Shown here: piece after piece, positions 2,212-60,814 of the stretch
Layout: the number at the start of each line of letters is the position of its first letter
How positions within the stretch are numbered: position 1 is the first letter of the stretch
Sequence record: PZ445487.1
Length of the DNA stretch: 64,000 nt
Strand: one strand, 5' to 3'
From: a phage
Program-made: the position numbers and the translations under genes
The notes under the pieces: model-generated
Database searches by the model: none
Told to the model about the DNA's origin: nothing
What the model saw: only the letters and a program-made list of their open reading frames with translations

Positions 2212-2214
2212 TCA

Positions 2215-2221
2215 CTAAATA
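2215..2221 (+). promoter_or_regulatory. Late-promoter-like CTAAATA motif upstream of gene 18
   Basis: cactaaatatc about 40 nt upstream of the gp18 ATG; resembles the T4 late promoter TATAAATA with C at the first position. Confidence 0.3.
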
Positions 2222-2263
2222 TCTTTCAAATTGAGCGAAACTCTACCGAGAAGGAATGATATT

Positions 2264-8204: not shown

Positions 8205-8215
8205 AATTCAGCTCA

Positions 8216-8222
8216 CTAAATA
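8216..8222 (+). promoter_or_regulatory. Late-promoter-like CTAAATA motif upstream of gene 22
   Basis: cactaaatact about 30 nt upstream of the ATG at 8251. Confidence 0.3.
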
Positions 8223-8250
8223 CTGAAAAATCGTTCAGAAGGAAACTATC

Positions 8251-10835: not shown

Positions 10836-10922
10836 TTGTTTATCGTAACGATTTAATACGCGAATAGTTCAATAACAATTCCTGTTGTACGATATAACTT
10901 TCTTACAACAGGAGTATCAGTC

Positions 10923-11237
10923 ATGACAACCCGAAATATTACCTCTGAACAATCCGTGTCACAAATCCTCATTAATTCCCGCACCCAAAAAGAACGTCTT
11001 TTTGACATCCTCACTAATGTGATCAATATTCGTCGACAATTAGATGGTGAATTTCCCGAATCTGATTCTGAAGAAAAATCAACACACAATCCAGGTCTTG
11101 TTGGTGCTATCCTTAACATACAAGGAGAGCAGGACGATATCATCGATAGAATCAATGCTCACATGGACGTCATCCATACTAAACTGGGAACGTTTTATCA
11201 CCCAAATTGTGAAGACGAGTCTAAAGATAATTGTTAA
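10923..11237 (+). CDS. Hypothetical protein (104 aa)
   Basis: ORF with SD aggag upstream of the ATG; no recognisable motif. Confidence 0.4.
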   Translation: MTTRNITSEQSVSQILINSRTQKERLFDILTNVINIRRQLDGEFPESDSEEKSTHNPGLVGAILNIQGEQDDIIDRINAHMDVIHTKLGTFYHPNCEDESKDNC

Positions 11238-11298
11238 TGTTTTCAATAAATGGGTAATGAACCATCATTACCCAACTTTCACAATAGGAATACAACTC

Positions 11299-11493
11299 AT
11301 GGCAAAAGAAACTCTTAACAATGAAAACTCCAACTTTGCAGAATGGCATACCGAATTAGAGCGCGTTGCCCGTTCTCAACATGGTTCTGCCGCTGATGCA
11401 GATGCTTGGCGTGAAGATTATGAATCTGGAAAAACTCCACGTCAGGCTTGGGAAGACGAATGGGGGTGGGATGATGCCGACTCTAATCCGTAA
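11299..11493 (+). CDS. Hypothetical small acidic protein (64 aa)
   Basis: Internal ATG of track ORF 11044..11493 chosen to avoid overlap with 10923..11237; Trp/Asp/Glu-rich. Confidence 0.3.
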   Translation: MAKETLNNENSNFAEWHTELERVARSQHGSAADADAWREDYESGKTPRQAWEDEWGWDDADSNP

Positions 11494-11704
11494 GATATAT
11501 CTGGATAAGAACTATTTGGAATCTAAAATCGAAGTTTTCACGGCTCAAAAAATATTTGAAGACGGTGAAACGAGATATTATCTGAATCCAGACCTTTATC
11601 TCCCAGGAAGTAATTTGAATCGCGACATACCCCAAATAGATGGCACAATCATTCGTTGGGAAATAGCGACGCAAGAAGACAACTGTCACAACATAACACT
11701 TTGA
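11471..11704 (+). CDS. Hypothetical protein (77 aa)
   Basis: Internal ATG of track ORF 11366..11704, overlapping the preceding gene end. Confidence 0.3.
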   Translation: MMPTLIRKIYLDKNYLESKIEVFTAQKIFEDGETRYYLNPDLYLPGSNLNRDIPQIDGTIIRWEIATQEDNCHNITL

Positions 11705-11719
11705 AGTGAGAACTACATC

Positions 11720-12166
11720 ATGTCTAAACAAAATTATATCTTTATTAGTCCAGGACGTTCCCAGTTTTTTCGTAGCGACATCGATACACCTATCGAAGGT
11801 TTTCGCATTTTCAAATGCTATAAATTGGCCAGCGGTGACATTGATTATCAAAGTCACGACAATGACCGCCAAGACTTGGTTGATAACGGTTGGGAAGAAA
11901 TAGATTCTCCTCAATATCTGACCGTCAACCTTTATTATATGAAGGAAAGCGGTAAATATTATTCGACTGGGGAGTTGAAAATCCGAGTTTCAGAAGCCCA
12001 ATCCAATCCAGCAAAAAGTTGGTATGACACGCAAGAGTTAGTGCGTGATCTCCTGAAGAAAGGCGAACTGCCTGGCTTGGTTAAAGGTTCCCGTTTTGAT
12101 ACCTTCATGTCCTGTGAACAACACCCGTGCTATGTTCCGACTTTATTTAAAATCAGCAACATGTGA
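11720..12166 (+). CDS. Hypothetical protein (148 aa)
   Basis: ORF preceded by the recurring leader gaactacatcATG. Confidence 0.5.
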   Translation: MSKQNYIFISPGRSQFFRSDIDTPIEGFRIFKCYKLASGDIDYQSHDNDRQDLVDNGWEEIDSPQYLTVNLYYMKESGKYYSTGELKIRVSEAQSNPAKSWYDTQELVRDLLKKGELPGLVKGSRFDTFMSCEQHPCYVPTLFKISNM

Positions 12167-12177
12167 GAGATTAATAT

Positions 12178-12552
12178 ATGAGCAATTTACCACTGCTTCA
12201 AGTCGGCGATGTGTTCGTTCTCACAGAAGAAATGACCATTGAAACTCAGGTGCCTAAGCATTTCTTGTACTCTAATTGCAAGGGAGATTGGCAAACGGAC
12301 TCTGGTTATATCACCCCTGAGGGATTCTTCGGTTACATGCAAGGGCATTATGTCGTTACCAAAACAGCTCTACAAGGAGGTAGCGCTGGTCACGACCCAT
12401 ACCCAGACGGTCATCATGTTTGGGCACAGCATACCGAAAATGAACGCATCAGGATCTGTTTTTATCAGACAGGCAGCTTCAGAAACATGCACCGTAACGT
12501 TCCAGTAGTCGGAAAAGCCAAGGCGCAAACATGGACTTGGGAGAAATTATGA
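12178..12552 (+). CDS. Hypothetical protein (124 aa)
   Basis: ORF tightly packed after 11720..12166. Confidence 0.45.
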   Translation: MSNLPLLQVGDVFVLTEEMTIETQVPKHFLYSNCKGDWQTDSGYITPEGFFGYMQGHYVVTKTALQGGSAGHDPYPDGHHVWAQHTENERIRICFYQTGSFRNMHRNVPVVGKAKAQTWTWEKL

Positions 12553-12785
12553 GAATCAAAAAGATTGGAGCAAGCCCGTTGACGGGCACTATCTTCCAAG
12601 GTACATTGAATACCAAAACCAGTATGTGGGTAGGTGAGAAGACCGACGTGACTAACGACTGTGTAGCGGCTACGGCTGAACACATGCGCCACATCAAGAA
12701 AGACTACTGCTTCCCTACTAAAGACGGCAAGTTCCTGGTGCTGAGCGCTGAGGTTCACGACACTCTTCCTGATCGCTTCAAATAA
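12549..12785 (+). CDS. Hypothetical protein (78 aa)
   Basis: ATGA start/stop overlap with the preceding ORF. Confidence 0.4.
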   Translation: MRIKKIGASPLTGTIFQGTLNTKTSMWVGEKTDVTNDCVAATAEHMRHIKKDYCFPTKDGKFLVLSAEVHDTLPDRFK

Positions 12786-12805
12786 ATTTAAAATTTATTC
12801 AATAA

Positions 12806-12839
12806 ACGGGGTTTACTTCTTCAATAAACCCCGTATACT
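12806..12839 (+). promoter_or_regulatory. Hairpin overlapping a sigma70-type early promoter (PeSL-like cassette)
   Basis: Stem acggggttt/aaaccccgt; -35 gtttac (about 12811-12816), 17-nt spacer, -10 tatact (about 12834-12839); conserved leader ataagcag...gaaatgaaggaactacatcATG follows. Confidence 0.5.
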
Positions 12840-12888
12840 TCATTCCATAAGCAGCACAACACTGACTCTGAAATGAAGGAACTACATC

Positions 12889-13353
12889 ATGACAACCGTA
12901 AAAATCTCCGTCTGGGCATTCAACAATTTCACCAAATTTGACGCGTTTGTTAAAAACGCTCTGGGCATCACCAACATAGAATCTTTCACTTCTTATGACC
13001 GCGAAGATCAGGTCAAAATGCTTCGTCCTGAAATCGACCTTGACGCAATGCTGAACGCCATCAAGAATCACGATGACAATCTGGCTGAATTCGAAAACCT
13101 CCGCACCTCTATCTTCAAAAAGAATGGTGGCATCCGTAAGCTGAGCAACAAAACCATCAAATATGTCACCGAAGGGTTCTTTGTGGTGTTCGACTTCATA
13201 GAAACCAAGCCGAACGAACTTCGTAAAGATTTAGACGGCAACGTTATCACCCTGAAAATGTTTGGCGAAGCCAAGGCCGATATGATGCGTGACGGCCTGT
13301 GTGATGAGACATTCACATACGACGAATATTGCGATCAGTGCCAAGATCTGTAA
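12889..13353 (+). CDS. Hypothetical protein (154 aa)
   Basis: First gene downstream of the promoter cassette; RBS aaggaa. Confidence 0.5.
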   Translation: MTTVKISVWAFNNFTKFDAFVKNALGITNIESFTSYDREDQVKMLRPEIDLDAMLNAIKNHDDNLAEFENLRTSIFKKNGGIRKLSNKTIKYVTEGFFVVFDFIETKPNELRKDLDGNVITLKMFGEAKADMMRDGLCDETFTYDEYCDQCQDL

Positions 13354-19089: not shown

Positions 19090-19455
19090 TCAAATATCTT
19101 GATTCACATAGGCGGGGGTTGCCTCGCCTTCTTTGTTGGAACCAAATAAACAGTCGATCGTGCCAATACATTGTTGTAGCACTTTCGGCTCAAGAATCTG
19201 AGAAAACAATTCTTCATTGGATGCCAGCAATGGAACAACTTTCACTTCCCGCGCCTGGCCTTGTTGAATAATGCCAACATATAGACCTTTGTTATTTGGG
19301 AGTAATGGTATCACCAACATCGGTGACACAATAAACCCCGATGTACAGAAAAGGCTTTGTAAATAAACGCCTTTAAATGACGGACGTTGTTCTGCTATGG
19401 AAAGAATTACTTCTTGGTCTTCCCCTACTGCGTATAAACCAACAAATTGCTTCAT
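19090..19455 (-). CDS. Hypothetical protein (121 aa), opposite strand
   Basis: Only ORF in an otherwise non-coding 700-bp stretch after uvsW; weak SD (gaga); could be spurious. Confidence 0.3.
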   Translation of the reverse strand: MKQFVGLYAVGEDQEVILSIAEQRPSFKGVYLQSLFCTSGFIVSPMLVIPLLPNNKGLYVGIIQQGQAREVKVVPLLASNEELFSQILEPKVLQQCIGTIDCLFGSNKEGEATPAYVNQDI

Positions 19456-19794: not shown

Positions 19795-20463
19795 ATGCAA
19801 GAGATCACTCTCTCCGAACGCACTTTACAACTGCTGGCTAACTTTGAAACCATCTGCCCCTCTATCGTTCTGGCACCTGGTAAAAAGTTACGCACTGTTA
19901 ACGATTCCAGTACAGTTATCGCTATTGCCGACATTGACGAAGACTTCCCGTTCGAATTCCCGATTCTGGATCTGACCAAATTGCTGGCAATCCAGCGTCT
20001 GCCGAGTTTTAAAGGCGGTAAAATTGAAATGTCGGAAGACCACATTTTGCTGAAAGGTGAAAACTCCCAACTGCAATTCTGGCGTTCCGCTAAAGAACTG
20101 ACTGTCGTTCCGGCAGACAGCATCGATCTCCCGTCTGTAGAATTTGAAGCAACAGTCACTCCTGAAAAAATGAAAGAGCTGACTCGCGCCTGTTCTACTC
20201 TGGGCCACAAAACTGTACGCCTGGTGGCCAGCGGCGGTAAAACTCGTCTGGTGGGCACGACCACTACTATCGATAATTCCAACGATTACACTGTTGAGTT
20301 GGGTGAAACAACTCTGGGTGATTTTGCTATGCCTGTTGATGTGGTCAACCTGAAAATGATCGAAGGCAACTACGTGATCCGCGCCTGTGCCGAAATGCAA
20401 CTGGTTAACTTCCAATCCGCAGATGGCACCATCAACTATTACGTCGGCATGCAGCTGGATTAA
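19795..20463 (+). CDS. 45: Sliding clamp (gp45-like)
   Basis: 222 aa; N-terminus LSERTLQLLANFETICPS parallels T4 gp45 LSKDTTALLKNFATINSG; followed by the clamp-loader genes. Confidence 0.85.
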   Translation: MQEITLSERTLQLLANFETICPSIVLAPGKKLRTVNDSSTVIAIADIDEDFPFEFPILDLTKLLAIQRLPSFKGGKIEMSEDHILLKGENSQLQFWRSAKELTVVPADSIDLPSVEFEATVTPEKMKELTRACSTLGHKTVRLVASGGKTRLVGTTTTIDNSNDYTVELGETTLGDFAMPVDVVNLKMIEGNYVIRACAEMQLVNFQSADGTINYYVGMQLD

Positions 20464-20540
20464 TCAATAACGATTCGGCGCTTTATTATCGGTGGCGGGG
20501 TTTCCCCGCCCTTTGAAACGTTTTATCTAAAGAGGCTGCA

Positions 20541-23337: not shown

Positions 23338-23406
23338 TATAATCCGTTATTCACTAAACAACAGAGGCTATAATGGCCTCTGTTTTTGTATTCTAGAGAG
23401 GATACC

Positions 23407-25016: not shown

Positions 25017-25112
25017 ACTTTTCAATAAATCTTTTCAGCGTATATTGACCTCACTTTAACGACGCGCCCCGATAAGGGCGCTCACTTTGAACTGAAACAG
25101 GAAGACTATACC

Positions 25113-27599: not shown

Positions 27600-27836
27600 A
27601 TGAAACAAATTACTAAGACAGTACAAATCACCCAATATCAAACGGATGACGGCAGAGTGTTCGATACTCTTGGTCAGGCCGAACATTATGAGAAGATGAA
27701 GTCTGGTATTCGCAAGGTATGCCCTTCTTGTGATGGCAAAGGTCGCGACTCTCCGTCGGGCGACGGGCGTGATATGACGACTTGTCATTATTGTGGTGGT
27801 AAAGGCTGGGTAGAAAAGAAAGAGATATGGGGTTAA
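27600..27836 (+). CDS. Small zinc-finger protein with two CxxCxGKG repeats (78 aa)
   Basis: CPSCDGKG and CHYCGGKG resemble DnaJ-type zinc-finger repeats; SD ggag upstream. Confidence 0.5.
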   Translation: MKQITKTVQITQYQTDDGRVFDTLGQAEHYEKMKSGIRKVCPSCDGKGRDSPSGDGRDMTTCHYCGGKGWVEKKEIWG

Positions 27837-28246
27837 TGAAACCTGTCATCTGTGATTACTGCGGTCAACCTGCCCAATACGTCGGGGGCGATGCTGTATA
27901 CCCCCACCGCCCCGACCTCCGCAATCTGAAGTTCTGGGTATGCTCGCCATGCGACGCTCGTGTGGGTTGCCATACCCATGGGGATGGTAGACAACCTCTG
28001 GGAAGGATGGCGAATGCCGCTCTCCGTGCTGCTAAGCAGGAAGCTCATAGGTCGTTTGACCCTATCTGGAAAAGTGGGCAGAGGAGCAGGAGTGATGCTT
28101 ACAGCTGGCTGGCTCATAATCTGGGGATCAAGAAGCGCGATTGCCATATCGGCTTGTTCGATATCGATATGTGCCGTAAAGTAGTCGCTGTGTGTAATCA
28201 ACTAAAGGCACAAGATAATGTCAAAGGAAATACAAGAAGCATTTGA
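27836..28246 (+). CDS. Zinc-finger protein (136 aa)
   Basis: CDYCG...CSPCDARVGCH cysteine cluster; TAATG overlap with the preceding gene. Confidence 0.45.
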   Translation: MKPVICDYCGQPAQYVGGDAVYPHRPDLRNLKFWVCSPCDARVGCHTHGDGRQPLGRMANAALRAAKQEAHRSFDPIWKSGQRSRSDAYSWLAHNLGIKKRDCHIGLFDIDMCRKVVAVCNQLKAQDNVKGNTRSI

Positions 28247-28469
28247 AAAATTATCTCAGGTAATGACCGACTGCAACCGCCGAAATTACTGCGATGAAGC
28301 GTATACCAAATTGAAAACTGCTGTTGAAACCGAGCTGGCAGGTCTTTCCGTTTTCAAAGATATTCAGACCGAAGTGCTATATCTGTCGGATGAAGATTTA
28401 AGGCGTTGCCCCCGCAAGATTTACCAATTACTGGATCGTTTGGTGAAAGTGGGGGTGAATAATGGGTAA
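28218..28469 (+). CDS. Hypothetical protein (83 aa)
   Basis: ORF overlapping the neighbouring gene ends. Confidence 0.35.
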   Translation: MSKEIQEAFEKLSQVMTDCNRRNYCDEAYTKLKTAVETELAGLSVFKDIQTEVLYLSDEDLRRCPRKIYQLLDRLVKVGVNNG

Positions 28470-29187
28470 TCGTGAAGGGATTAAACTCACACCAGAACTT
28501 CTGAAGTCACATATTGCTGAAGTGATTTATGAAGACCGTGAAGTTGGTGGTCACCGCGTCATTACATGCCATTTCAAGATGGACAATGGGTTCGTTGTGT
28601 GGGGTAAGAATAGTTCCACATCGGTAGACCCTGCCAACTTCGATGAAGAAATAGGCAAGCAGCTGGCCTATGAAAAGACCCTTTCTCAACTGTGGGAACT
28701 GGAAGCATATCGCGCGATAGTAGAAAAGCAGATCATCGATGTGTCCGCCAAAGATGATAAGATCAACATTGATGAATATGTGTCAGAAAGGGAAGCGATA
28801 CATGAGATGGGTGGTTTTGAATTCCTTGAGGGTAAAGGACAATCCGTCGTGTTTCGTCATCCCAAGGATCCAAGTCGGGGATTTCGAGTTGAATTTGTTC
28901 GCACCGATAATGAACGTTATGACGAACGGCGTAATGGTGAAGCAAGATCTTTGGTGGAAGCGTATCTTCGCTCGTTTATGACTTCTGAAGATCTAAATTC
29001 TGAACTTGTCTTGCGTTTGGCGAAAACGTGTAATGCTGCTTCAGGGGATTATCCGTGGTGTGACCTGTCAGAAGAAAAACGCCAAGCAGCTTGTGATCGT
29101 GTTAAGAAATTCTTGTTAGATCCGAAAGCCCAACCTGGTGATTCCGTGGGGGCGCTGTATAGAGCCATCGTGGTGTCATACTTGTAA
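28462..29187 (+). CDS. Hypothetical protein (241 aa), N-terminal Gp49-like region
   Basis: LTPELLKSHIAEV...HRVITCHFKMDNGFVVWG resembles a conserved phage family I recall as Gp49-like; low certainty. Confidence 0.4.
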   Translation: MGNREGIKLTPELLKSHIAEVIYEDREVGGHRVITCHFKMDNGFVVWGKNSSTSVDPANFDEEIGKQLAYEKTLSQLWELEAYRAIVEKQIIDVSAKDDKINIDEYVSEREAIHEMGGFEFLEGKGQSVVFRHPKDPSRGFRVEFVRTDNERYDERRNGEARSLVEAYLRSFMTSEDLNSELVLRLAKTCNAASGDYPWCDLSEEKRQAACDRVKKFLLDPKAQPGDSVGALYRAIVVSYL

Positions 29188-29454
29188 TTCTTCAAAAGTC
29201 TTTCAAAATCAATAACGTCCGGCAAATTGCTGGGCGTTTCAATTAACAAGCCAAGGTATAATGGCCCAATTGTAAAGCGAGGGAAATTACTTTGCCCAAA
29301 CCATTTTTGCGTTCAGGAGTTGACTCTCTTGACTCACAGTTTAAACCCAGCGAAGTTTTAATTCAACAGATTGAAACTAATCGCGAATTCATAGAACACA
29401 TGCTGGCGAAGCCGGAAGGTGAAGCCGTCCATACCACTAAAGAAGGTAATAACG

Positions 29455-31671
29455 ATGATTGAATCATTAACATTTAAGAATGCGGTTGCGACCGTCGCGC
29501 CGTCTAACCATGTAATCGTTGTGGATATCTCCGGTTCCATGTATCGTTCACTTCCAGAAGTCCGTAAGCATCTGAAGGAGAACCTGCCTTCCCTGGTGAA
29601 ACCGGAAGATACTGTGAGCATCCTTTACTTTTCATCTCGCGGTGATTTCGGAACGGTATTTGCCGGACGTCAGATTAACAGTGCAACTGATCTCAGTGAG
29701 ATCAATAATTTAATTGACCGTTTCCTGAAGCCTTCTGGTTGTACTGGTTTTGTTGAGCCGCTGAAATTGGCTGCGGAAACTGCCATTAGCTTGAATAAAC
29801 CTGGTTATGTTAATAACCTGGCATTCATGACCGACGGATATGACAACTGCTGGCGTTCTAATGAAATCCTGGATGCCGCTGAAGTACTGCCCAAAGCGTT
29901 TGATAACATTACCTTCATCGAATACGGTTGGTATTGTAATCGCGAACTGCTGGCGCTAATGGCAGAACGTTCTGGTGCGACCCACGTATTCGCCGAAGGC
30001 CAGAATGAATATCAGACCGAATTGGAAAACGTGCTAAAAACTTCTTCACCGAAAGTGGTGGTCGATGTTCCCCTGGTTTACACCCATGCCATTTATGTTG
30101 AAAATGGCGTGGCGACTGTTTTAGCTGTGCATCCTGATGAAGAGCACCCTATTGGCCACGTCAGCATCCCTGAAAGCGTTTCTCAGCTGTGGGTTGTAAA
30201 CCCCAACATGATCGACCAGCTGGATAATCTGGCAGACATCCAAGCGGCATACGTGCTGGCATTTTACGGCGTGTATACCATGGACGCAGATTTGGTTTGG
30301 GCTGCGCTGAAGAAAACGGGTGACGTCCGCTTCATCAAACAATACAGCAACTGTTTCACCAAGCAGGATTACTCCAACATCAAAGTCGATCTGACTCAGG
30401 CTATCGTAGACGAATCTCTGCGAGGAGTTGATGGCATCGATTATAATATGGTTCCGGCTGAAGACGCCACCACCATTGTTGATGTTCTGACGTATTTGGC
30501 TGAAGCAGATGTCTCTATCGTCACCAAGCATCCGCTATTCTCTTACAAGAGCATTGGGCGCGGTACTATACAAAAAGTTGACGACACCGAAGACAAGTTG
30601 GCCGAAGAGATTGCGAATGCGACTTCTAAAGAAGAGCGTAAAGCCCTGGCGCTCAAACTGGCCGAGCACGAAGATTGGACGCCGGAATTCAATCCAGCAG
30701 ATGATAAAGGGATTGTCCCGATCAGCAATTTGGTCTATAATTCAGAACGTCCTAACATCAGTGTGCAGACAGTTCAACACGGAACGGTTATTGTGCCTGA
30801 GTTTGTACAGAAGAAATATGAACTTCCTGAAGAGCTGGGAACCTGGCGTTATCGCAATTACACCATTGTCAAGGATGGTATCATCAACCTGAAAACAATG
30901 CCTATCACTGCAGATTCTCCGATTGTTCGGGCTAAGGTGGCACAGGATTTGACTGCCATGGGTGTTCATGTGTTTGGTGGGCCGGAAGTCTTCATTGTAA
31001 ATCTGGAAAGTGTCCCAATGGTTAACCGCGCCATGACAAAGAATATCAGTGCTGCTGAATTCTTTGCAGACAATGTGCGCCGTGAAGCATTGAAGGCAAA
31101 GCAAAAAGTTCTGAAATTCTACCGTGATGAACTGGTTGGCAAAGGCAACGCTACTGGTCTGGCTTCAAAATATGGCAAAGAAGCGGCTGATTTCCTGTCA
31201 GCAAACGGCATTCGCGACTATGGATTTTCACCGAAGACTTCTTCTGTAGAATCAACCGATGTCTATATGAGTCGTGAATTGAATGTGAAAATCAAAGGCG
31301 CATCTTCACTGCCGAGCATCGCGTCTGTTATCAAAAAACAGACGGACGGTAAAAAACTGAATGTCGCTGATCAGCTGATCGCTAATGCCCTGGCCGAATA
31401 CAATGCGTTTGTTAAATCGCCGATGATCACCAGCGTACCGGAAGAGACTCAGAAAAAGCTGATCGAAAGTTGGATTGGTGATGCAGCAAAAGCAGCTATC
31501 AACGAAGTTCGATCTCTGAACAAAACGCTGTCCAAGGTAGTTTATGGGATTGTTGCAGGCCATGGTTGGTTTACCGACCTGGATTTGGAAGAATCCACTA
31601 TGGATGTGGAAGTTGATGGGGTGAAATACACTGTCACTGCCGAACTGGCTGAAAAAGAAGTCAAAATCTAA
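29455..31671 (+). CDS. von Willebrand factor A (vWA) domain protein (738 aa)
   Basis: N-terminus carries the MIDAS motif in VIVVDISGSMY (DxSxS) with downstream T and D positions typical of vWA; about 550 aa of unassigned sequence follow. SD aagaagg before ATG 29455. Confidence 0.55.
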   Translation: MIESLTFKNAVATVAPSNHVIVVDISGSMYRSLPEVRKHLKENLPSLVKPEDTVSILYFSSRGDFGTVFAGRQINSATDLSEINNLIDRFLKPSGCTGFVEPLKLAAETAISLNKPGYVNNLAFMTDGYDNCWRSNEILDAAEVLPKAFDNITFIEYGWYCNRELLALMAERSGATHVFAEGQNEYQTELENVLKTSSPKVVVDVPLVYTHAIYVENGVATVLAVHPDEEHPIGHVSIPESVSQLWVVNPNMIDQLDNLADIQAAYVLAFYGVYTMDADLVWAALKKTGDVRFIKQYSNCFTKQDYSNIKVDLTQAIVDESLRGVDGIDYNMVPAEDATTIVDVLTYLAEADVSIVTKHPLFSYKSIGRGTIQKVDDTEDKLAEEIANATSKEERKALALKLAEHEDWTPEFNPADDKGIVPISNLVYNSERPNISVQTVQHGTVIVPEFVQKKYELPEELGTWRYRNYTIVKDGIINLKTMPITADSPIVRAKVAQDLTAMGVHVFGGPEVFIVNLESVPMVNRAMTKNISAAEFFADNVRREALKAKQKVLKFYRDELVGKGNATGLASKYGKEAADFLSANGIRDYGFSPKTSSVESTDVYMSRELNVKIKGASSLPSIASVIKKQTDGKKLNVADQLIANALAEYNAFVKSPMITSVPEETQKKLIESWIGDAAKAAINEVRSLNKTLSKVVYGIVAGHGWFTDLDLEESTMDVEVDGVKYTVTAELAEKEVKI

Positions 31672-32026: not shown

Positions 32027-32032
32027 CTGAAG

Positions 32033-32059
32033 ATCCCCAACAAACGTTGGGGATTTTTA
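32033..32059 (+). terminator. Rho-independent terminator
   Basis: atccccaac-aaac-gttggggat followed by ttttt. Confidence 0.55.
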
Positions 32060-32068
32060 CTTTTAGGG

Positions 32069-32098
32069 GTTTACTTCTATAAGGCAAATGCGTATTAT
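32069..32098 (+). promoter_or_regulatory. Sigma70-type early promoter
   Basis: -35 gtttac, 18-nt spacer, -10 tattat, about 50 nt upstream of the ATG at 32150. Confidence 0.45.
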
Positions 32099-32149
32099 TC
32101 AATAACTGGCGAACGATGGGTTCACCAGGTTGAAAGGTAAGATTATATC

Positions 32150-32389
32150 ATGAAGAACAAAATGGTAGAAACTTCAGTGGAGATTGATCGTAATTGGGGC
32201 TTGCTCCGCGCTAAAGGGTTCCGTCGTGTGTATGCGACCAAAGAAGTATATGCCCAGCGCCGCGATGTTATCATCAGCAAGAAGGGAAAAGATTGGGTTG
32301 CCGAAGAAGTCGATGTCGAAACAGGCGTCGTCGGAAAGGTGAAAGCCAAGGCCGCGATCCTCTTCGCTCTTCTGAAGCACATCAGTTAA
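32150..32389 (+). CDS. Hypothetical basic protein (79 aa)
   Basis: ORF with RBS aaggtaag upstream. Confidence 0.45.
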   Translation: MKNKMVETSVEIDRNWGLLRAKGFRRVYATKEVYAQRRDVIISKKGKDWVAEEVDVETGVVGKVKAKAAILFALLKHIS

Positions 32390-32405
32390 TTCTATAACTT
32401 AGGGT

Positions 32406-32448
32406 GGGGTATGATTACCCCGCCTATTTGAAATGAAGGAAATACATC
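32406..32448 (+). promoter_or_regulatory. Conserved 5' leader: hairpin plus atttgaaatgaaggaaatacatc
   Basis: Hairpin ggggta-tgat-tacccc followed by the conserved leader; nearly identical to the element at 32962..33007. Confidence 0.45.
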
Positions 32449-32955
32449 ATGACCGATCAACAAATTCAAGATTTATTTTACCTCGTCCATGATAAGTCCC
32501 ACATCATGCGCCCTGGCACTGTTTCCCCTGCCATCCGTGGTCTGGTGCAAGAATTACGCGAACCGCAGATGACCACACTTTATCGCGGGTTGCCTAAAGA
32601 GGACGTTGCGCGTTTGGAGATGATGTTTGAACGAGGAGACATGTTTCAGACATGGGATTCTTGTCTTAGTTTCAGCGAACTGAAGCATGTGGCCAAACAA
32701 TTTTCTAAATCGTATGGAACCAAAGCTGTTGCCCGCATTTGTTATAAACATCGAAACGGACTCCCAGAGGGGCTTAATGTCTTTGGTTCTCTAGAAAAAT
32801 TTGTGAACAAAGGCGATGAATCAGAAATGGATATGCTGGACTTGGCGTCCATGGAGAAAGAATGGATATTCTGTCAGCCTCGCGTCTTCCCAGTTTCAAG
32901 AAAAATGGCAACAGATGGGACGATGGTTTTTACCGTATCACTTGTTACCCTATAA
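32449..32955 (+). CDS. Putative ADP-ribosyltransferase (ModA/ModB-like)
   Basis: R-S-ExE arrangement: LYRGLP (Arg), WDSCLSFS (Ser motif), EKEWIF (ExE) in the order and spacing of T4 ModA as I recall it; 168 aa. Confidence 0.4.
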   Translation: MTDQQIQDLFYLVHDKSHIMRPGTVSPAIRGLVQELREPQMTTLYRGLPKEDVARLEMMFERGDMFQTWDSCLSFSELKHVAKQFSKSYGTKAVARICYKHRNGLPEGLNVFGSLEKFVNKGDESEMDMLDLASMEKEWIFCQPRVFPVSRKMATDGTMVFTVSLVTL

Positions 32956-32961
32956 ACCCAC

Positions 32962-33007
32962 GGCGGGGTATCTTTGCCCCGCCCATTTGAAATGAAGGAA
33001 CTATATC
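32962..33007 (+). promoter_or_regulatory. Conserved 5' leader: hairpin plus atttgaaatgaaggaactatatc (second copy)
   Basis: Hairpin ggcgggg-tatctttg-ccccgcc plus leader; the downstream gene also begins MTDQ. Confidence 0.45.
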
Positions 33008-33286
33008 ATGACAGATCAAAGAAGTATTGCTCGTTCGGAAATCAAAGATATTATACAGAGCAAAACCAACGAAACTCATGCTCAATCCAGAATGCTATCT
33101 CGATTTGTTGAAATTAAGTTTGACATTGAAGAGAATAACAATCGGAGAGCGCTGGAGGGAATGTTGGCGATTATCTTGGGCCATGTCACCAATTCAGCAT
33201 ACGACATGGATGATTTAACTCGTTTGTTGAACGCCCAGAATAACGTTGGGAATTCTGTTCGCGAATTGCTGTTTAAGTCCGAATGA
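33008..33286 (+). CDS. Hypothetical protein (92 aa)
   Basis: Shares leader and first four codons (MTDQ) with 32449..32955; the rest is unrelated. Confidence 0.45.
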   Translation: MTDQRSIARSEIKDIIQSKTNETHAQSRMLSRFVEIKFDIEENNNRRALEGMLAIILGHVTNSAYDMDDLTRLLNAQNNVGNSVRELLFKSE

Positions 33287-33323: not shown

Positions 33324-33773
33324 ATGTTCCTTACATCCTTTATTGACTGGATGAATATCATAAATGGCCTGAGGATTCCTGTTGGGAACCTCGGGCTTTC
33401 TCGTTCTTCTATGCCGCAAATCGATGCCGACAAACAAGAAGATTTTCACAAATATCTTGAAGACAACGGCGTGTCCATAGATGCTGCGCAAGTGCCCATC
33501 AAAATGCTTCGTCTTACCCAGAACGAAATCAATAAAATGAAGGTCTGGAAGATTATGAAGCAGATCAGAAATAAGAAGCCCATGGGTCGAGTTTGGGTGT
33601 CTTCTGACAATTACGTTGTTGACGGGTCTCACCGATTTGTCGCTGCGTTGAACATGGACGGCAAACAGCGCATGAAGGTCTACAAAGTTGATTTGCCAGC
33701 GATGGAATTTGTTAAACTCGCTAAACAGTTTCAGGGTGTGCGATACAGAACGGTCTCAGATTCGAGATACTAA
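33324..33773 (+). CDS. ParB/sulfiredoxin-like nuclease-domain protein
   Basis: YVVDGSHRFVAA matches the ParB N-terminal domain signature (x-DG-HR-xA). Confidence 0.45.
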   Translation: MFLTSFIDWMNIINGLRIPVGNLGLSRSSMPQIDADKQEDFHKYLEDNGVSIDAAQVPIKMLRLTQNEINKMKVWKIMKQIRNKKPMGRVWVSSDNYVVDGSHRFVAALNMDGKQRMKVYKVDLPAMEFVKLAKQFQGVRYRTVSDSRY

Positions 33774-33774
33774 T

Positions 33775-34050
33775 ATGGACGTCTATTCAGAACTTATCGA
33801 AATAGGAGCGAAACGTCATTTCGTAAACAAATATCTTTCGCTCATTTCTTCTTTTAGTCATTACCAAGGCGTCGGGGAGAAGCACCTATTGAAAGGTAAG
33901 ACGAGAGGGGAAGCCCTGAAACAAGTATTCGGTTCCAATGACGCAGAAATTTGGGCACAGGTTCGGCCAATTATTCTACGGTTGGATAACGGTTGGGACC
34001 CTTTAACTTGCGAAAAATGGGTTAATCGTTATGGGGTGGAATACCAGTAA
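33775..34050 (+). CDS. Hypothetical protein (91 aa)
   Basis: Internal ATG of track ORF 33688..34050 chosen to avoid overlap. Confidence 0.35.
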   Translation: MDVYSELIEIGAKRHFVNKYLSLISSFSHYQGVGEKHLLKGKTRGEALKQVFGSNDAEIWAQVRPIILRLDNGWDPLTCEKWVNRYGVEYQ

Positions 34051-34144
34051 ACCACCCGTTTCTGAATACGATAGTTTATTGAAACCCTTTACTCAACATG
34101 GTGACAGCCCTATCATTTTATCCAATGAAATAAGGAGAATCACC

Positions 34145-34834
34145 ATGAAACGTTTAATCATCGGGGTTGTGCTGGCTGGTCTGGCACTTCCTGCCACCGC
34201 CAAGCTGAATTCCACGGGTGAAAAACTGTGGTCTGATCTTTCCTACTGTGCTGGGTTCTCCCAAGCCGTCGCTATAGACAAAACTGGTTCCATAGAGAAC
34301 TTTGCTGAACTCTGGACCACAGGTAATGTCACAGATGCCGTTGTAAATGCTGGTATTGAGTTTAATCGATATAAGCAAGGCGCGTTCAACCTGAAAGGAT
34401 ATATGAACGACAAAGAATTTAACCGAGGAGGCATGGAGGCGAGCGATCTTATTATGACTGGTCGTATGGGCACACAAGGACGAATGACCGTAAGACAGTG
34501 CCGTTCTCTTCCTTCTCCAGCATTACAAAAAGGTGTGCAGGTTGGCCGACGTCAGCTGGATCTCATCAATGATGGCAACCAATGTATCCGAGTATTTGAA
34601 TACAGTGCTGATCAAGAATCAGATCGACGTTTGAAAAAGGAATGGCGGACTCGCGCCCTTGGCCTGAGAGCATGGCTGGTGGAAAATGATCATTATTATG
34701 AAGACCGTGTTCAGAATGGTTTGAAAGATCTTTCCACTAATTTGTCTGTCAATCTTGATGATCCCAGGCTTGCCCGTGAACTCAAGCAAACAAGAATTGA
34801 CTGTGATAATATGATGAAGGAGAACGAAAGATGA
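34145..34834 (+). CDS. Secreted/periplasmic hypothetical protein
   Basis: SD aaggag; N-terminal signal peptide MKRLIIGVVLAGLALPATA. Confidence 0.5.
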   Translation: MKRLIIGVVLAGLALPATAKLNSTGEKLWSDLSYCAGFSQAVAIDKTGSIENFAELWTTGNVTDAVVNAGIEFNRYKQGAFNLKGYMNDKEFNRGGMEASDLIMTGRMGTQGRMTVRQCRSLPSPALQKGVQVGRRQLDLINDGNQCIRVFEYSADQESDRRLKKEWRTRALGLRAWLVENDHYYEDRVQNGLKDLSTNLSVNLDDPRLARELKQTRIDCDNMMKENER

Positions 34835-46824: not shown

Positions 46825-46830
46825 GGTGAA

Positions 46831-48176: not shown

Positions 48177-48189
48177 AATATTCAATAAA

Positions 48190-48232
48190 AGGGGCAAAAG
48201 CCCCTTTACTTCTTCAATAACCCACGTATAAT
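48190..48232 (+). promoter_or_regulatory. Hairpin overlapping a sigma70-type early promoter (PeSL-like cassette)
   Basis: Hairpin aggggc-aaaa-gcccct; -35 ctttac, 17-nt spacer, -10 tataat; conserved leader ataagcag...aggaactacattATG follows. Confidence 0.5.
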
Positions 48233-48280
48233 TCTAAACATAAGCAGTACGACACCAACTTGAAAAGCAGGAACTACATT

Positions 48281-48556
48281 ATGAAAATCATCCTCGACGC
48301 ATATATCCGTTACGGCAGCAAATGGTTGATGGCCAAAGTTTACGACGGTGAAGAATTAGTCCACGCCCAAACCGCCCCTTCTGAACAATTGCGTGAAATT
48401 ATGAAACGCGATTTTCCTACTGCTGAAATGATTGAACCTGCCAACCAAACCGAAGTTGACAAAGAATGGGAACGCGAATGGAGTCCGGCGGCGTTGGCAC
48501 AATTTGATAAGAATTACAACAATCGCCAAAACGCGTCTCGCCCGTTTCGTCGTTAA
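48281..48556 (+). CDS. Hypothetical protein (91 aa)
   Basis: ATG after the conserved leader; the track ORF begins at an upstream TTG (48260). Confidence 0.45.
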   Translation: MKIILDAYIRYGSKWLMAKVYDGEELVHAQTAPSEQLREIMKRDFPTAEMIEPANQTEVDKEWEREWSPAALAQFDKNYNNRQNASRPFRR

Positions 48557-51009: not shown

Positions 51010-51013
51010 GTCA

Positions 51014-53995: not shown

Positions 53996-54020
53996 AGGCC
54001 TCATTCTACGAGGCCTTTTA
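53996..54020 (+). terminator. Rho-independent terminator
   Basis: aggcctc-attctac-gaggcct followed by tttt. Confidence 0.5.
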
Positions 54021-54059
54021 AAATACTTCAAAAATAATTTAAAAATTTATTGAAAAAGA

Positions 54060-54089
54060 CTTTACTCTTAAATAATCATGCACTATTAT
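54060..54089 (+). promoter_or_regulatory. Sigma70-type early promoter
   Basis: -35 ctttac, 18-nt spacer, -10 tattat; a hairpin (ggcgg...ccgcc, about 54101-54121) and the leader ...ggaattacatcATG follow. Confidence 0.45.
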
Positions 54090-54166
54090 AGTTCACATAG
54101 GGCGGTACACAACACCCCGCCGAATGAAAAGTGAAACGACCCAACTACATTATGAGGAATTACATC

Positions 54167-54655
54167 ATGGCTACTACCAAAACTCTGATCACCAACGGCA
54201 CCATCTCTTTTGAACTGAACACCGAAGTTGCAAAAGTTGAAATGTTCCGCATCGCTCAGGCAGCTGGCTTCACTGGTGGCAAAACTTCCTTCATGAATCT
54301 GCTGAACGGCAAAGTGAAAGCGACCAACGGCTTCACCCTGGTAGAGCAGGTTGTCGTAGACAAAGCCGTGGTTGCCAAGACTGCTGACAAGGTTGGCATG
54401 CTGAAAGACCTGGGCCATGACATCCACGTTGTCGAAGCGAACACCGAAACTTACGGCACCATCGTAGTCGGTAAAGGTCGCATTCAGCTGAACCCGCTGA
54501 ACAACGGAACCTTCTCCGTGATGGTATTCCCGAAAAAGGGTTATGACAACAGCGATATCGTGAAAGCCGCTGGCGGTGAAGCGAAATCCCAGTATGTCAA
54601 AATGGGTAAACTGAGCGCCGACGCAGTAGAAACTCTGGTGAACAAACTGGCTTAA
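54167..54655 (+). CDS. Hypothetical protein (162 aa), probably highly expressed
   Basis: Framed by a promoter, the conserved leader and a strong terminator; Gly/Val/Lys/Thr-rich; no motif recognised. Confidence 0.5.
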   Translation: MATTKTLITNGTISFELNTEVAKVEMFRIAQAAGFTGGKTSFMNLLNGKVKATNGFTLVEQVVVDKAVVAKTADKVGMLKDLGHDIHVVEANTETYGTIVVGKGRIQLNPLNNGTFSVMVFPKKGYDNSDIVKAAGGEAKSQYVKMGKLSADAVETLVNKLA

Positions 54656-60474: not shown

Positions 60475-60482
60475 TCTTTCAA

Positions 60483-60529
60483 AGCCCCTCATTGAGGGGC
60501 TTTACTTTTGAAACCTTTCCGCCTATACT
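60483..60529 (+). promoter_or_regulatory. Hairpin overlapping a sigma70-type early promoter (PeSL-like cassette)
   Basis: Hairpin agcccctc-att-gaggggct; -35 ctttac, 18-nt spacer, -10 tatact; leader ...aatagcaggaactatatcATG follows. Confidence 0.5.
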
Positions 60530-60580
60530 TCCCAGTAATTCATTGGCAAACGCCACAAATTGAATAGCAGGAACTATATC

Positions 60581-60814
60581 ATGACCAACTCTGAAATATA
60601 TCATGCTTCTATGCATTATCACGACCTACGCGCCCGTCCAGGACACGCCAAACAAAAAGCATTCTGGGTGGCAGAACTCAGATTACGCCGTGCTGTCGTT
60701 AACCACCAAATAATCATGAATCGGAAAAACGACAAATCACCGTTGTTGGCAGATTCTTATCTTGAACTCCGCACAGCCTATGAACAAGCCAAACAGCACG
60801 TAATAGGAGCATAA
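60581..60814 (+). CDS. Hypothetical protein (77 aa)
   Basis: ATG after the conserved leader; the track ORF begins at an upstream TTG (60560). Confidence 0.45.
   Translation: MTNSEIYHASMHYHDLRARPGHAKQKAFWVAELRLRRAVVNHQIIMNRKNDKSPLLADSYLELRTAYEQAKQHVIGA

What the first reader, a model, noticed from the sequence alone, without database searches (positions are those of the whole stretch)
12806..12888. Repeated hairpin-plus-early-promoter cassettes (PeSL-like)
At least five intergenic sites share one architecture: a GC-rich hairpin whose 3' arm overlaps a -35 (g/c)tttac, a 17-18 nt spacer and a -10 tatact/tataat/tattat. Copies lie near 12806-12839, 32033-32098, 48190-48232, 54060-54089 and 60483-60529. 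This matches the promoter-early-stem-loop cassettes proposed to mediate modular shuffling in T4-type genomes, and each copy here fronts small unknown genes.
Basis: partly seen in the sequence, partly recalled or inferred. Interest (0 to 1): 0.55.

Follow-up and report, generated by a model that had tools for sequence, protein, structure and literature searches.

The report
Terminator-plus-early-promoter cassettes in phage CBA120
The five sites are real, conserved junctions in phage CBA120 that combine a terminator hairpin, a T4-early-type promoter and a shared mRNA leader; they sit where related phages have swapped, gained or lost small genes, which extends a known T4-phage design (PeSL) to another phage family.

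Summary
The window is the reverse complement of Escherichia phage CBA120 (Kuttervirus, Ackermannviridae), record positions 46302-110301. All five sites exist as described and share TTTACT, a 16-17 nt spacer and TAYWMT, on the coding strand, 49-78 nt before a start codon.

Genome-wide, a relaxed pattern gives 10 co-oriented intergenic sites against 1.0 expected (0 of 1000 shuffles reach 10). A sixth site in the window lies at 34088-34116.

The hairpin claim holds only in part. Stable stem-loops touch the -35 at s1, s3 and s5. At s2 the hairpin lies 12 nt upstream, and at s4 44 nt upstream.

The sites are not one uniform repeat. s1, s3 and a copy outside the window form a roughly 100-nt family that includes the leader and ribosome-binding region. 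s5 is a distant member. s2 and s4 share only the promoter core.

The cassettes are conserved across four genera, more strongly than most of the flanking genes compared, and the genes behind them vary. In Det7 a 75-nt cassette repeat flanks an extra ORF. The promoter consensus equals the published PST/T4 PeSL consensus. LIMEstone1's GenBank record already marks four orthologous sites as putative promoters.

Verdict: a PeSL-like element in a new family. Transcription and recombination remain untested.

The parts
12786..12891 (+). Cassette s1 (orf178 stop to orf176 ATG). TTCAATAA box 12798-12805; stem-loop 12806-12815/12825-12834; -35 TTTACT 12812-12817; second TTCAATAA 12820-12827 in the spacer; -10 TATACT 12834-12839; CA-rich leader; ribosome-binding region (TIR) CTGAAATGAAGGAACTACATCATG 12868-12891.
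   Evidence: Mean identity 0.96 across 7 genomes of 4 genera, against 0.87 and 0.52 for the flanks. Found in 283 phage records, 212 of them at 95% identity or more. The orthologue in LIMEstone1 is annotated 'putative early promoter'.
32027..32152 (+). Cassette s2 (acyl-carrier-protein gene stop to orf141 ATG). Terminator hairpin 32030-32057 followed by a T-run; -35 32070-32075; -10 TATTAT 32093-32098; leader hairpin 32099-32133; ATG 32150.
   Evidence: Four different gene arrangements at this locus among 7 phages. The LIMEstone1 orthologue is annotated as an overlapping terminator and early promoter.
34088..34147 (+). No hairpin.
   Evidence: Conserved in all 6 relatives. In every relative, homology to CBA120 resumes 4-11 nt after the stop of orf136, which is found only in CBA120.
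48177..48283 (+). Cassette s3 (orf113 stop to orf112 ATG). TTCAATAA 48181-48188; hairpin 48188-48195/48200-48207, whose 3' arm GCCCCTTT runs into the -35 at 48205-48210; TTCAATAA 48213-48220; -10 TATAAT 48227-48232; TIR 48260-48283.
   Evidence: It is a paralogue of s1 (80% over 56 nt ungapped; BLAST E 1e-15). Mean identity across relatives 0.92.
53996..54169 (+). Junction s4. Terminator hairpin 53996-54016; A/T-rich stretch 54017-54060 (88% A+T in the 40 nt before the -35); -35 54061-54066; TT(A)AATAA 54068-54075; -10 TATTAT 54084-54089; leader stem GGGCGG/CCGCC 54101-54121; ATG of orf104 at 54167.
   Evidence: The leader stem is kept while its loop differs in Ag3, phiD3 and cp19. The LIMEstone1 orthologue is annotated terminator plus 'middle promoter'.
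60475..60583 (+). Cassette s5 (glutaredoxin gene stop to orf096 ATG). Hairpin 60481-60490/60494-60503 overlapping the -35 at 60501-60506; -10 TATACT 60524-60529; TIR 60560-60583.
   Evidence: Profile E 4e-5. The stem shows a compensatory C:G to G:C change in Vi01 and Det7.
32396..32460 (+). Left copy of a 65-nt direct repeat (hairpin with a -10-like loop, TIR and first codons) flanking orf140. It carries a second-class promoter, TTCTATAA-N12-TATGAT.
   Evidence: orf140 is replaced by denV or another gene in Vi01, phiD3, Ag3 and cp19, with breakpoints inside the repeats.
32955..33019 (+). Right copy (83% identical) of the 65-nt repeat flanking orf140.

Best explanation
Each site is a compact regulatory junction of phage CBA120 that does three things on about 100-175 bp.

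1. A G+C-rich stem-loop followed by a T-run ends transcription coming from upstream. At s3 and s5 the T-run is itself the -35 element. At s1 the stem encloses the -35.
2. A host sigma-70 promoter of the T4-early type starts a new transcript early in infection without phage factors. It consists of an A/T-rich or hairpin-occupied upstream region, a -35 (G/C)TTTACT, a 16-17 nt spacer and a -10 TAYWMT.
3. A leader of roughly 20 to 70 nt ends in a shared ribosome-binding region (TTGAAA-N2-3-AGGAACTAYATYATG) that drives translation of a small accessory gene.

The cassettes are repeated in direct orientation and are better conserved than most of the flanking genes. They therefore also act as portable homology: recombination within or at the edge of a cassette, inside one genome or between co-infecting relatives, deletes, inserts or exchanges the ORF behind it together with its expression signals. 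This is the PeSL mechanism described for T4-like phages.

What the sequence shows: the motif, its significance, strand and position bias, hairpin stability, conservation, and the coincidence with mosaic boundaries. What is inferred: promoter activity, early timing, termination, and the causal role in recombination.
For: Motif statistics:
- Relaxed pattern 10 against 1.0 expected, 0 of 1000 shuffles, antisense 0. All 10 lie 27-78 nt upstream of a co-oriented start.

Conservation across Kuttervirus, Agtrevirus, Limestonevirus and Taipeivirus:
- The -35 (with its extension), the -10 and the ribosome-binding region are conserved. The spacer varies in sequence, and its length stays at 16-17 nt in the site listing.
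- Cassette mean identity is 0.87-0.96 at s1, s3, s4 and s6, above all but two of the flanks compared.
- The s1 cassette is at least 95% identical in 212 of 283 records. The surrounding 4 kb reaches that level in 63 of 273.

Hairpins:
- -12 to -17 kcal/mol, z -3.2 to -5.6.
- One compensatory stem change at s5.

Independent annotation and literature:
- LIMEstone1 annotators marked the s1 and s2 orthologues as early promoters, and s2, s3 and s4 as having terminators.
- The consensus is identical to the PST/T4 PeSL consensus.

Shuffling:
- The s2 locus has four arrangements. Det7 has a 75-nt, 95% direct repeat flanking an extra ORF, and Ag3 has two different cassettes around another ORF.
- The gene behind s1 has two unrelated alleles whose distribution cuts across the taxonomy: Det7 groups with Ag3 and phiD3.
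- In phiD3 the s3 leader is joined to an s1-type ribosome-binding region and a different gene.
- The cassette is found in 283 records, but orf176 in 81, orf112 in 134 and orf096 in 150.
- 6 of 6 class-I junctions carry a breakpoint, against 31 of 59 others (p 0.028).
Against: - No transcription start, expression-timing or recombination data exist for any Ackermannviridae in the literature I could search.
- Breakpoints are common at gene junctions in general (52%). Against other intergenic spacers of at least 30 nt the enrichment is not significant (p 0.077).
- Many breakpoints lie 3-16 nt inside gene starts that have no class-I cassette.
- The SP1 deletion of seven genes, which removed s1 itself, used only an 11-nt identity (TCATGACAACC) at two start codons.
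- s2 and s4 share only the promoter core with the repeat family.
- The s1 hairpin is invariant, so covariation cannot test it.
- s3 and s4 were annotated as 'middle' promoters in LIMEstone1. A conserved TTCAATAA box in the spacer hints at phage-factor control.
Confidence: 0.7

Rival explanations
1. The sites are ordinary terminator/promoter junctions and nothing more. Mosaic boundaries fall there because only exchanges at gene borders give viable phages, and because any short identity at gene starts is enough for recombination. On this view the cassettes play no special part in shuffling.
For: - 31 of 59 junctions without a class-I cassette also carry breakpoints. The p value against other intergenic spacers is 0.077.
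- Many breakpoints lie 3-16 nt after start codons that follow only a shared ribosome-binding region.
- The SP1 seven-gene deletion used 11 nt of identity at two ATGs.
- Homing-endonuclease insertions explain several other differences.
Against: - Det7 has a 75-nt direct repeat of the whole terminator and promoter around an extra ORF.
- A 65-nt repeat flanks the swapped gene orf140.
- s1 and s3 show mosaic patterns in Ag3 and phiD3.
- The cassette is conserved far above what promoter function would need.
- Class I and II junctions together carry breakpoints in 11 of 12 cases, against 26 of 53 (p 0.006).
Confidence: 0.3
2. The sites are not immediate-early, host-only promoters. They are controlled by a phage protein that recognises TTCAATAA. 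The same box sits 11-14 nt (mode 12) upstream of TATAAT in a much larger promoter class with the geometry of T4 middle promoters. In s1, s3, s4 and the copy before orf234 the box lies inside the spacer, where a bound protein would repress or retime the promoter.
For: - TTCAATAA occurs 44 times in the genome, 29 of them non-coding against 3.8 expected. TTCAATAA-N11-13-TAnnnT occurs 10 times against 0.03 expected.
- The spacer box is invariant across four genera in s1 and s4.
- The s3 and s4 orthologues are annotated as 'middle promoter' in LIMEstone1.
Against: - s5 and the 34088 site lack the box, and s2 has only a one-mismatch version (TTCTATAA). All three still show the same -35 and -10 pattern.
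- The -35 and -10 and their spacing are adequate for sigma-70 alone and equal the T4 early type.
- The CBA120 genome paper found no MotA or AsiA homologue.
- This reading is compatible with, rather than opposed to, early-promoter function.
Confidence: 0.2
3. The resemblance is chance, or reflects A/T-rich intergenic composition.
For: A generic sigma-70 scan finds about as many sites as in shuffled sequence (48 against 38.5, and 51 against 36.5).
Against: - 0 of 1000 composition-preserving shuffles reach the observed count, and there is no antisense hit.
- Orthologous conservation across four genera.
- Profile E-values of 1e-9 and 4e-5 for copies not used in training.
Confidence: 0.01
4. The ultra-conserved s1/s3-type element has a function other than as a promoter, such as a small RNA, a replication origin of the promoter-plus-unwinding type, or a packaging or protein-binding site.
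For: Nearly every nucleotide of about 100 nt is conserved in genomes that are otherwise about 80% identical. That is more than a promoter needs.
Against: - No Rfam family matches.
- The leaders of s1 and s3 have no significant structure (z -0.5 and +0.6).
- The element always ends exactly at a start codon with a Shine-Dalgarno sequence.
- There are three copies per genome, in front of different genes.
Confidence: 0.04

Closest known systems
PeSL (promoter-early stem-loop) cassettes of T4-like phages: RB49/phi1 (Arbiol et al. 2010, PMC2839356), and PST/T4 and nt-1/KVP40 (Comeau et al. 2014, PMC4122927)
   Same: - A composite of an early sigma-70-type promoter and a stem-loop terminator.
- The stem-loop sits in various positions relative to the -35 and -10.
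- The promoter consensus of the PST/T4 pair, TTTACW-N17-TAYWAT, is the one found here.
- The elements sit in front of small genes of unknown function.
- They coincide with insertions, deletions and replacements between relatives.
- ORFs flanked by two copies occur (Det7).
   Different: - The host phage family is Ackermannviridae, not Straboviridae.
- No sequence homology is detectable to any Straboviridae record.
- About 10 copies per genome, instead of about 50.
- The repeat family extends through the leader to the start codon.
- A conserved TTCAATAA box is present.
- No reporter or mini-circle data exist.
Bacteriophage T4 early promoters (Liebig and Rueger 1989; reviewed by Hinton 2010; both are cited in PMC3184105, and the details here are from my own knowledge)
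   Same: A -35 GTTTAC/TTTAC in place of TTGACA, a -10 close to TATAAT, A/T-rich upstream DNA, and use by unmodified host RNA polymerase to express many small takeover genes.
   Different: Not tested experimentally here. The upstream A/T-rich region is replaced by a hairpin at several sites. The shared leader and ribosome-binding sequence is not a T4 feature that I know of.
PmSL (promoter-middle stem-loop) of vibriophage nt-1 and T4 MotA-box middle promoters (PMC4122927)
   Same: The second class seen here has the same geometry: TTCAATAA, 11-14 nt, TATAAT, often with the -10 lying in the loop of a terminator hairpin. That is a box centred near -30 plus a -10, combined with a stem-loop.
   Different: The box sequence differs (TTCAATAA, not TGCTT). 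No MotA or AsiA homologue is known in these phages. This class is not the finding itself.
GenBank annotation of Dickeya phage LIMEstone1 (HE600015; Adriaenssens et al. 2012, PMC3296691)
   Same: The orthologues of s1 and s2 are annotated 'putative early promoter'. Those of s3 and s4 are annotated 'putative middle promoter'. Terminators are annotated at s2, s3, s4 and s5, overlapping the -35 at s2 and s3.
   Different: In the passages on promoters and terminators that I read, the elements are listed as separate predicted signals. They are not described as a repeated cassette, as conserved across genera, or as recombination joints. The CBA120 genome paper states that early promoters could not be identified by informatics.

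Membership tests
PeSL cassettes (Arbiol 2010; Comeau 2014) | Sigma-70-like early promoter with -35 and -10 hexamers about 17 nt apart | tested here: met
   TTTACT-N16/17-TAYWMT at all five sites plus one more. This is identical to the PST/T4 PeSL consensus TTTACW-N17-TAYWAT.
PeSL cassettes (Arbiol 2010; Comeau 2014) | Stable stem-loop within or next to the promoter, in any of five positions | tested here: met
   - s1: between and overlapping the -35 and -10.
- s3 and s5: overlapping the -35.
- s2: just upstream, plus one downstream of the -10.
- s4: 44 nt upstream.
- Energies -12 to -17 kcal/mol, z -3.2 to -5.6.
- The 34088 site has none.
PeSL cassettes (Arbiol 2010; Comeau 2014) | [quoted passage not shown] | tested here: inconclusive
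   A+T in the 40 nt upstream is 0.75 at s1, 0.88 at s4 and 0.82 at the orf234 copy. It is 0.50-0.60 at s2, s3 and s5, where the hairpin occupies this space. The non-coding mean is 0.58.
PeSL cassettes (Arbiol 2010; Comeau 2014) | Many repeated copies per genome, with conservation over about 100 bp | tested here: inconclusive
   There are ten sites per genome, not about 50. s1, s3, the orf234 copy and s5 share homology of about 90-110 nt (E 1e-9 and 4e-5 for the copies not used in training). s2 and s4 share only the core.
PeSL cassettes (Arbiol 2010; Comeau 2014) | Placed directly upstream of small genes of unknown function, in variable regions | tested here: met
   All six first genes have no Pfam hit and match only PHROGs of unknown function. 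orf176, orf112 and orf096 are found in 81, 134 and 150 of about 283 related records.
PeSL cassettes (Arbiol 2010; Comeau 2014) | Insertions, deletions and replacements between relatives bounded by the cassettes, and ORFs flanked by two copies | tested here: met
   6 of 6 junctions carry breakpoints. The s2 locus has four arrangements. Det7 has a 75-nt, 95% repeat around gene 46. The excess over other junctions is modest (p 0.028 and 0.077).
PeSL cassettes (Arbiol 2010; Comeau 2014) | Measured promoter and terminator activity, and formation of mini-circles by cassette-to-cassette recombination | not testable with these tools
   This needs reporter fusions, 5'-end mapping and inverse PCR. No such data were found.
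PeSL cassettes (Arbiol 2010; Comeau 2014) | Resident in a T4-type (Straboviridae) genome | tested here: not met
   The host genome is CBA120, Kuttervirus, Ackermannviridae. The cassette matches only Ackermannviridae-like records. This describes where PeSLs were found rather than how they work.
T4-type early promoters | Recognition by host sigma-70 polymerase immediately after infection, without phage proteins | not testable with these tools
   This is inferred only from the hexamers and spacing.

The most novel reading that the evidence does not exclude
The conserved TTCAATAA box may be the binding site of an unidentified phage transcription factor. This factor would activate the large second promoter class, where the box lies at about -30 with MotA-like geometry. 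It would at the same time shut off or retime the early cassettes, where the same box lies in the -35/-10 spacer of s1, s3, s4 and the orf234 copy. That would amount to a one-protein early-to-middle switch in a phage family that has no MotA or AsiA. The near-total conservation of the 100-nt s1/s3 cassette across genera would then reflect overlapping promoter, operator, leader and recombination functions.
Probability: 0.15. Interest if true: 0.65.

Novelty: new member of a known kind. Interest (0 to 1): 0.4.

Why it matters
The CBA120 genome paper stated that early promoters could not be found by informatics. These cassettes give concrete, testable candidates for early transcription in Kuttervirus and its relatives, a group used for biocontrol and as reporter phages.

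The work also shows that the composite terminator/promoter design proposed to drive modular gene shuffling in T4-like phages recurs in a separate family. Here it uses the same promoter consensus but unrelated sequence. That would support the idea that regulatory cassettes act as general recombination joints in large lytic phages.

In practice, the cassettes mark sites where accessory genes are naturally exchanged. Such sites are convenient places to insert payloads.

Tried and rejected
- **Generic sigma-70 and terminator scans.** Counts were close to those in shuffles, and the sites were only mid-ranking, so the scans were not useful for discrimination.
- **Exact 16-mer TTTACTTCTTCAATAA in IMG/VR.** Abandoned.
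- **Rfam scan of the whole window.** No family matched.
- **Literature searches for the TTCAATAA motif, Kuttervirus promoters and transcriptomes.** Nothing relevant was found. The Viunalikevirus genus paper (Arch Virol 2012) is not held, so I cannot exclude that it describes these motifs.
- **One profile to unite all five sites.** s2 was not recovered and s4 was only marginal, so the idea of a single repeat family was dropped in favour of one tight family plus sites that share only the promoter core.
- **An upstream overlapping promoter at s2 (TTTACT 32056-32061, N16, TATAAG).** Its -10 is not conserved in relatives, so it was set aside.
- **Structured leader RNA at s1 and s3.** No significant fold was found.
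- **First shuffle scripts.** One timed out and one included coding DNA by mistake. Only one search is used.

Full report
**Identity of the window**

Window 11000-15000 matches Escherichia phage CBA120 (JN593240 / NC_016570; Kuttervirus, Ackermannviridae) at 100% on the minus strand. Assembling the record shows that the whole window is the reverse complement of record positions 46302-110301, apart from two single-base differences. The conversion is: window position = 110302 minus record position. The five sites precede these genes, with the ATG in window coordinates:

| Site | Gene | ATG |
|---|---|---|
| s1 | orf176 | 12889 |
| s2 | orf141 | 32150 |
| s3 | orf112 | 48281 |
| s4 | orf104 | 54167 |
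| s5 | orf096 | 60581 |

**The observation**

All five sites read TTTACT, 16-17 nt, TAYWMT on the coding strand. The strict pattern was derived from the sites themselves, so its 5 hits against 0.23 expected is circular. I therefore used a looser pattern, TTTAC-N17-19-TAnnnT, on the whole 157-kb genome.

- It gives 22 hits. Ten of them lie entirely in the 8.7% of the genome that is non-coding. All ten are co-oriented with a start codon 27-78 nt downstream.
- In the 112 co-oriented upstream intergenic regions (13.3 kb) the count is 10 against 1.0 expected. None of 1000 dinucleotide-preserving shuffles reaches 10, and the antisense strand has none.
- Canonical TTGAC-type promoters are not enriched (1 against 0.64).
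- A generic sigma-70 scan does not single these sites out.

The ten sites are s1-s5, a sixth window site at 34088-34116 before orf135, and four outside the window (before orf025, orf061, orf076 and orf234).

**Hairpins**

| Site | Position | Energy (kcal/mol) | z-score | Relation to the promoter |
|---|---|---|---|---|
| s1 | 12806-12834 | -14.0 | -5.4 | Perfect 10-bp inverted repeat ACGGGGTTTA/TAAACCCCGT; 5' arm contains the -35, 3' arm touches the -10 |
| s2 | 32030-32057 | -16.9 | -5.2 | 12-bp stem plus T-run, ends 12 nt before the -35 |
| s3 | 48188-48207 | -13.3 | -3.2 | 3' arm runs into the -35 |
| s4 | 53996-54016 | -12.1 | -4.4 | Terminator 44 nt upstream of the -35 |
| s5 | 60481-60503 | -16.6 | -5.6 | 3' arm runs into the -35 |

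This spread of stem-loop positions is itself what Arbiol et al. describe for PeSLs.

**The sites are not one uniform repeat**

- s1 and s3 are paralogues over the whole stretch from the upstream TTCAATAA box to the ATG. An unbiased repeat search of the window recovers them, and BLAST gives E 1e-15.
- A profile of s1 and s3 orthologues finds two copies that were not used to build it: the orf234 copy (E 1e-9) and s5 over its full length (E 4e-5).
- s4 reaches only E 0.15 and s2 is not found.
- The profile also hits the ribosome-binding regions of orf138 and orf140. The sequence AGGAACTACATCATG, allowing up to three mismatches, occurs 12 times in the window against 1.9 expected. It is a general translation-start signal of this phage and not specific to the cassette.

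**Conservation**

I fetched the syntenic 50 kb of six relatives: Mutine, Vi01 and Det7 (Kuttervirus), AG3 (Agtrevirus), phiD3 (Limestonevirus) and Klebsiella phage cp19 (Taipeivirus).

- Every class-I site that lies within the fetched stretch recurs at the orthologous place, apart from Det7's s5 promoter, which is interrupted by a homing endonuclease gene.
- Mean identity of the cassettes is 0.96 (s1), 0.92 (s3), 0.91 (s4) and 0.87 (34088 site). This exceeds all but two of the flanks compared: the flanks downstream of s4 and of the 34088 site are as conserved or more (0.95 and 0.91).
- s5 could be aligned in only three genomes. Its cassette (0.81) is no better conserved than its upstream flank (0.84).
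- The -35 with its 3' extension, the -10 and the ribosome-binding region are invariant or nearly so. The spacer varies in sequence at s3, s5 and the 34088 site, and in the site listing its length stays at 16-17 nt. This is the footprint expected of a real promoter.
- The 102-nt s1 cassette alone matches 283 phage records at 786 places, about three per genome. None carries the name of a T4-like (Straboviridae) phage, and those whose taxonomy I fetched are Ackermannviridae. Identity is at least 95% in 212 records. The surrounding 4 kb reaches that level in only 63 of 273.
- The s5 stem shows a compensatory C:G to G:C change in Vi01 and Det7.
- The leader stems of s2 and s4 keep their stems while their loops differ.

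**What is already known**

- The CBA120 paper found only eight sigma-70-like promoters and says early promoters could not be identified by informatics. The AG3 paper says much the same.
- The LIMEstone1 paper reports five early, five middle and 33 late predicted promoters and 31 terminators.
- LIMEstone1's GenBank record marks the s1 and s2 orthologues as "putative early promoter", with the s2 promoter overlapping an annotated terminator. It marks the s3 and s4 orthologues as "putative middle promoter" plus terminator, and s5 as a terminator only.
- So the individual signals have been predicted before in a relative, but not as a repeated, conserved cassette.
- Comeau et al. 2014 give TTTACW-N17-TAYWAT as the PeSL promoter consensus of the PST/T4 pair, which is exactly the consensus here. 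They also define a Mot-box version, the PmSL.

**Gene gain and loss**

Chained BLAST of the window against the six relatives shows a breakpoint at all six class-I junctions.

- *s1.* The downstream gene exists as two unrelated alleles. Homology breaks within 8 nt of the ATG. The alleles are distributed against the taxonomy: Det7, a Kuttervirus, carries the allele of AG3 and phiD3. In Klebsiella phages homology stops soon after the ATG. In some Serratia phages only the cassette itself matches.
- *s2.* There are four arrangements:
  - CBA120 and phiD3: ACP gene, cassette, orf141.
  - Mutine and Vi01: an unrelated 79-codon gene lies between the cassette and the orf141 homologue.
  - Det7: cassette, unrelated ORF, second cassette, orf141 homologue. 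The two cassette copies form a 75-nt direct repeat, 95% identical, with 356-nt spacing.
  - AG3: two different cassettes around yet another ORF, the second of the s1/s3 type.
- *s3.* In phiD3 the leader is joined to an s1-type ribosome-binding region and a different gene.
- *s4.* Vi01 lacks the upstream gene orf105.
- *s5.* cp19 has a different gene after codon 3. Det7 has a homing endonuclease gene inserted just after the -35.
- *34088 site.* The upstream gene orf136 is unique to CBA120, and homology resumes 4-11 nt after its stop codon.

Across all records, orf176, orf112 and orf096 are detectable in 81, 134 and 150 records, against 283 for the cassette. All six first genes are of unknown function.

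**How strong is the link to recombination?**

It is modest.

- Junctions with a class-I site carry breakpoints in 6 of 6 cases, against 31 of 59 for all others (one-sided Fisher p 0.028). Against other spacers of at least 30 nt the figure is 21 of 34 (p 0.077).
- Class I and class II together give 11 of 12 against 26 of 53 (p 0.006).
- Many breakpoints lie a few nucleotides inside start codons that follow only the shared ribosome-binding region.
- In phage SP1, seven genes together with s1 were deleted through an 11-nt identity, TCATGACAACC, at the starts of orf184 and orf176.

Short identities at gene starts are therefore sufficient on their own. The cassettes are the longest and best-conserved such identities, but not the only ones.

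Three observations speak for real cassette-to-cassette exchange:
- the Det7 repeat;
- the 65-nt, 83% repeat flanking the swapped gene orf140;
- the mosaic of s1-type and s3-type segments in AG3 and phiD3.

**Mechanism proposed**

Each site ends the upstream transcript at a hairpin and T-run. It then restarts transcription from a T4-early-type sigma-70 promoter and supplies a standard leader and ribosome-binding region for a small accessory gene. Because it is a conserved direct repeat, it also provides homology for exchanging the gene behind it.

- Shown: motif, statistics, hairpin stability, conservation, and coincidence with mosaic borders.
- Inferred: promoter and terminator activity (I put this at about 0.85), early timing independent of phage factors (about 0.7), and a causal role in shuffling (about 0.6).

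No transcriptome of any member of this family was found, and no Rfam family matches.

**Classification**

By mechanism and by every sequence-level criterion, these are PeSL-like elements. They lie in a family where PeSLs have not been reported in the literature I could search, and they show no sequence homology to Straboviridae records. I file them as a new member of a known kind.

They differ from PeSLs in four ways: lower copy number, extension of the repeat through the leader to the start codon, the TTCAATAA box, and the absence of experimental data.

Noticed in passing
Window 10868-10893, 20463-20489, 23350-23374, 25021-25046, 29238-29262, 32390-32415, 35994-36019; record 26031, 31249, 37463, 133395, 148005, 152626, 155612: There is a second, much commoner promoter-like class: TTCAATAA, 11-14 nt (mode 12), TATAAT. 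The box occurs 44 times in the genome, 29 of them non-coding against 3.8 expected. The full pattern occurs 10 times against 0.03 expected. The geometry is that of T4 MotA-box middle promoters, yet no MotA or AsiA homologue is known. In about ten cases the -10 hexamer lies in the loop of a strong G+C-rich hairpin followed by a T-run, so one sequence would serve as both terminator and promoter.
   Followed up: partly
Window 54070 and 45472: The window differs from NC_016570 at two bases. At 54070 the window has A and the record has C. This base lies in the TTCAATAA box of the s4 spacer, and all six relatives also have C. At 45472 (inside orf118, the gp46 homologue) the window has T and the record has G.
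   Followed up: partly
Window 32396-32460 and 32955-33019: A 65-nt direct repeat (83% identical) of hairpin, ribosome-binding region and first codons flanks orf140, an Alt-like gene that matches the PHROG 'RNA polymerase ADP-ribosylase' at E 1e-15. The gene is replaced by denV in Vi01 and phiD3, and by another gene in AG3.
   Followed up: partly
Window 10923-12891 compared with L011 (Salmonella phage SP1): SP1 lacks the seven genes orf184 to orf178 and the s1 cassette. The junction falls in an 11-nt identity, TCATGACAACC, shared by the starts of orf184 and orf176, which places orf176 behind the orf184 promoter.
   Followed up: yes
Window 2212-2263, 8205-8250, 46825-46920, 51010-51060, 51607-51662; record 113923-129290: The motif CTAAATA (often ACTAAATAC) occurs 25 times in the genome. 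Sixteen copies are non-coding, and all of those are co-oriented just upstream of genes, mostly structural ones. It looks like the late-promoter element of this family; from memory, a CTAAATAcCcc consensus has been published for the ViI-like phages.
   Followed up: partly
Window 27606-27836 and 33755-34054: orf149 is absent from five of the six relatives, where its removal is precise and leaves a 7-14-nt overlap at the junction; cp19 lacks a larger stretch (27604-28477) that includes it. orf136 is absent from all six.
   Followed up: no
Window 19090-19455, minus strand: The 710-nt stretch annotated as non-coding between orf165 and orf163 holds a 121-codon ORF on the opposite strand. It is the same length as Det7 gene 30 and Mutine_087, which are annotated at the corresponding place.
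   Followed up: partly
Record 30450-30566 (outside the window, before orf061): Directly after a terminator hairpin there is a tandem duplication of the 16-nt unit CTTTACTTCAATAAAA, that is, the -35 plus the TTCAATAA box.
   Followed up: no
Window 54140-54169 and record 30450-30566: At s4 a second, in-frame ATG with the same ACTACATTATG context lies five codons upstream of the annotated orf104 start. A similar ACTACATCATG lies upstream of orf061, out of frame. These look like remnants of duplicated ribosome-binding regions.
   Followed up: no
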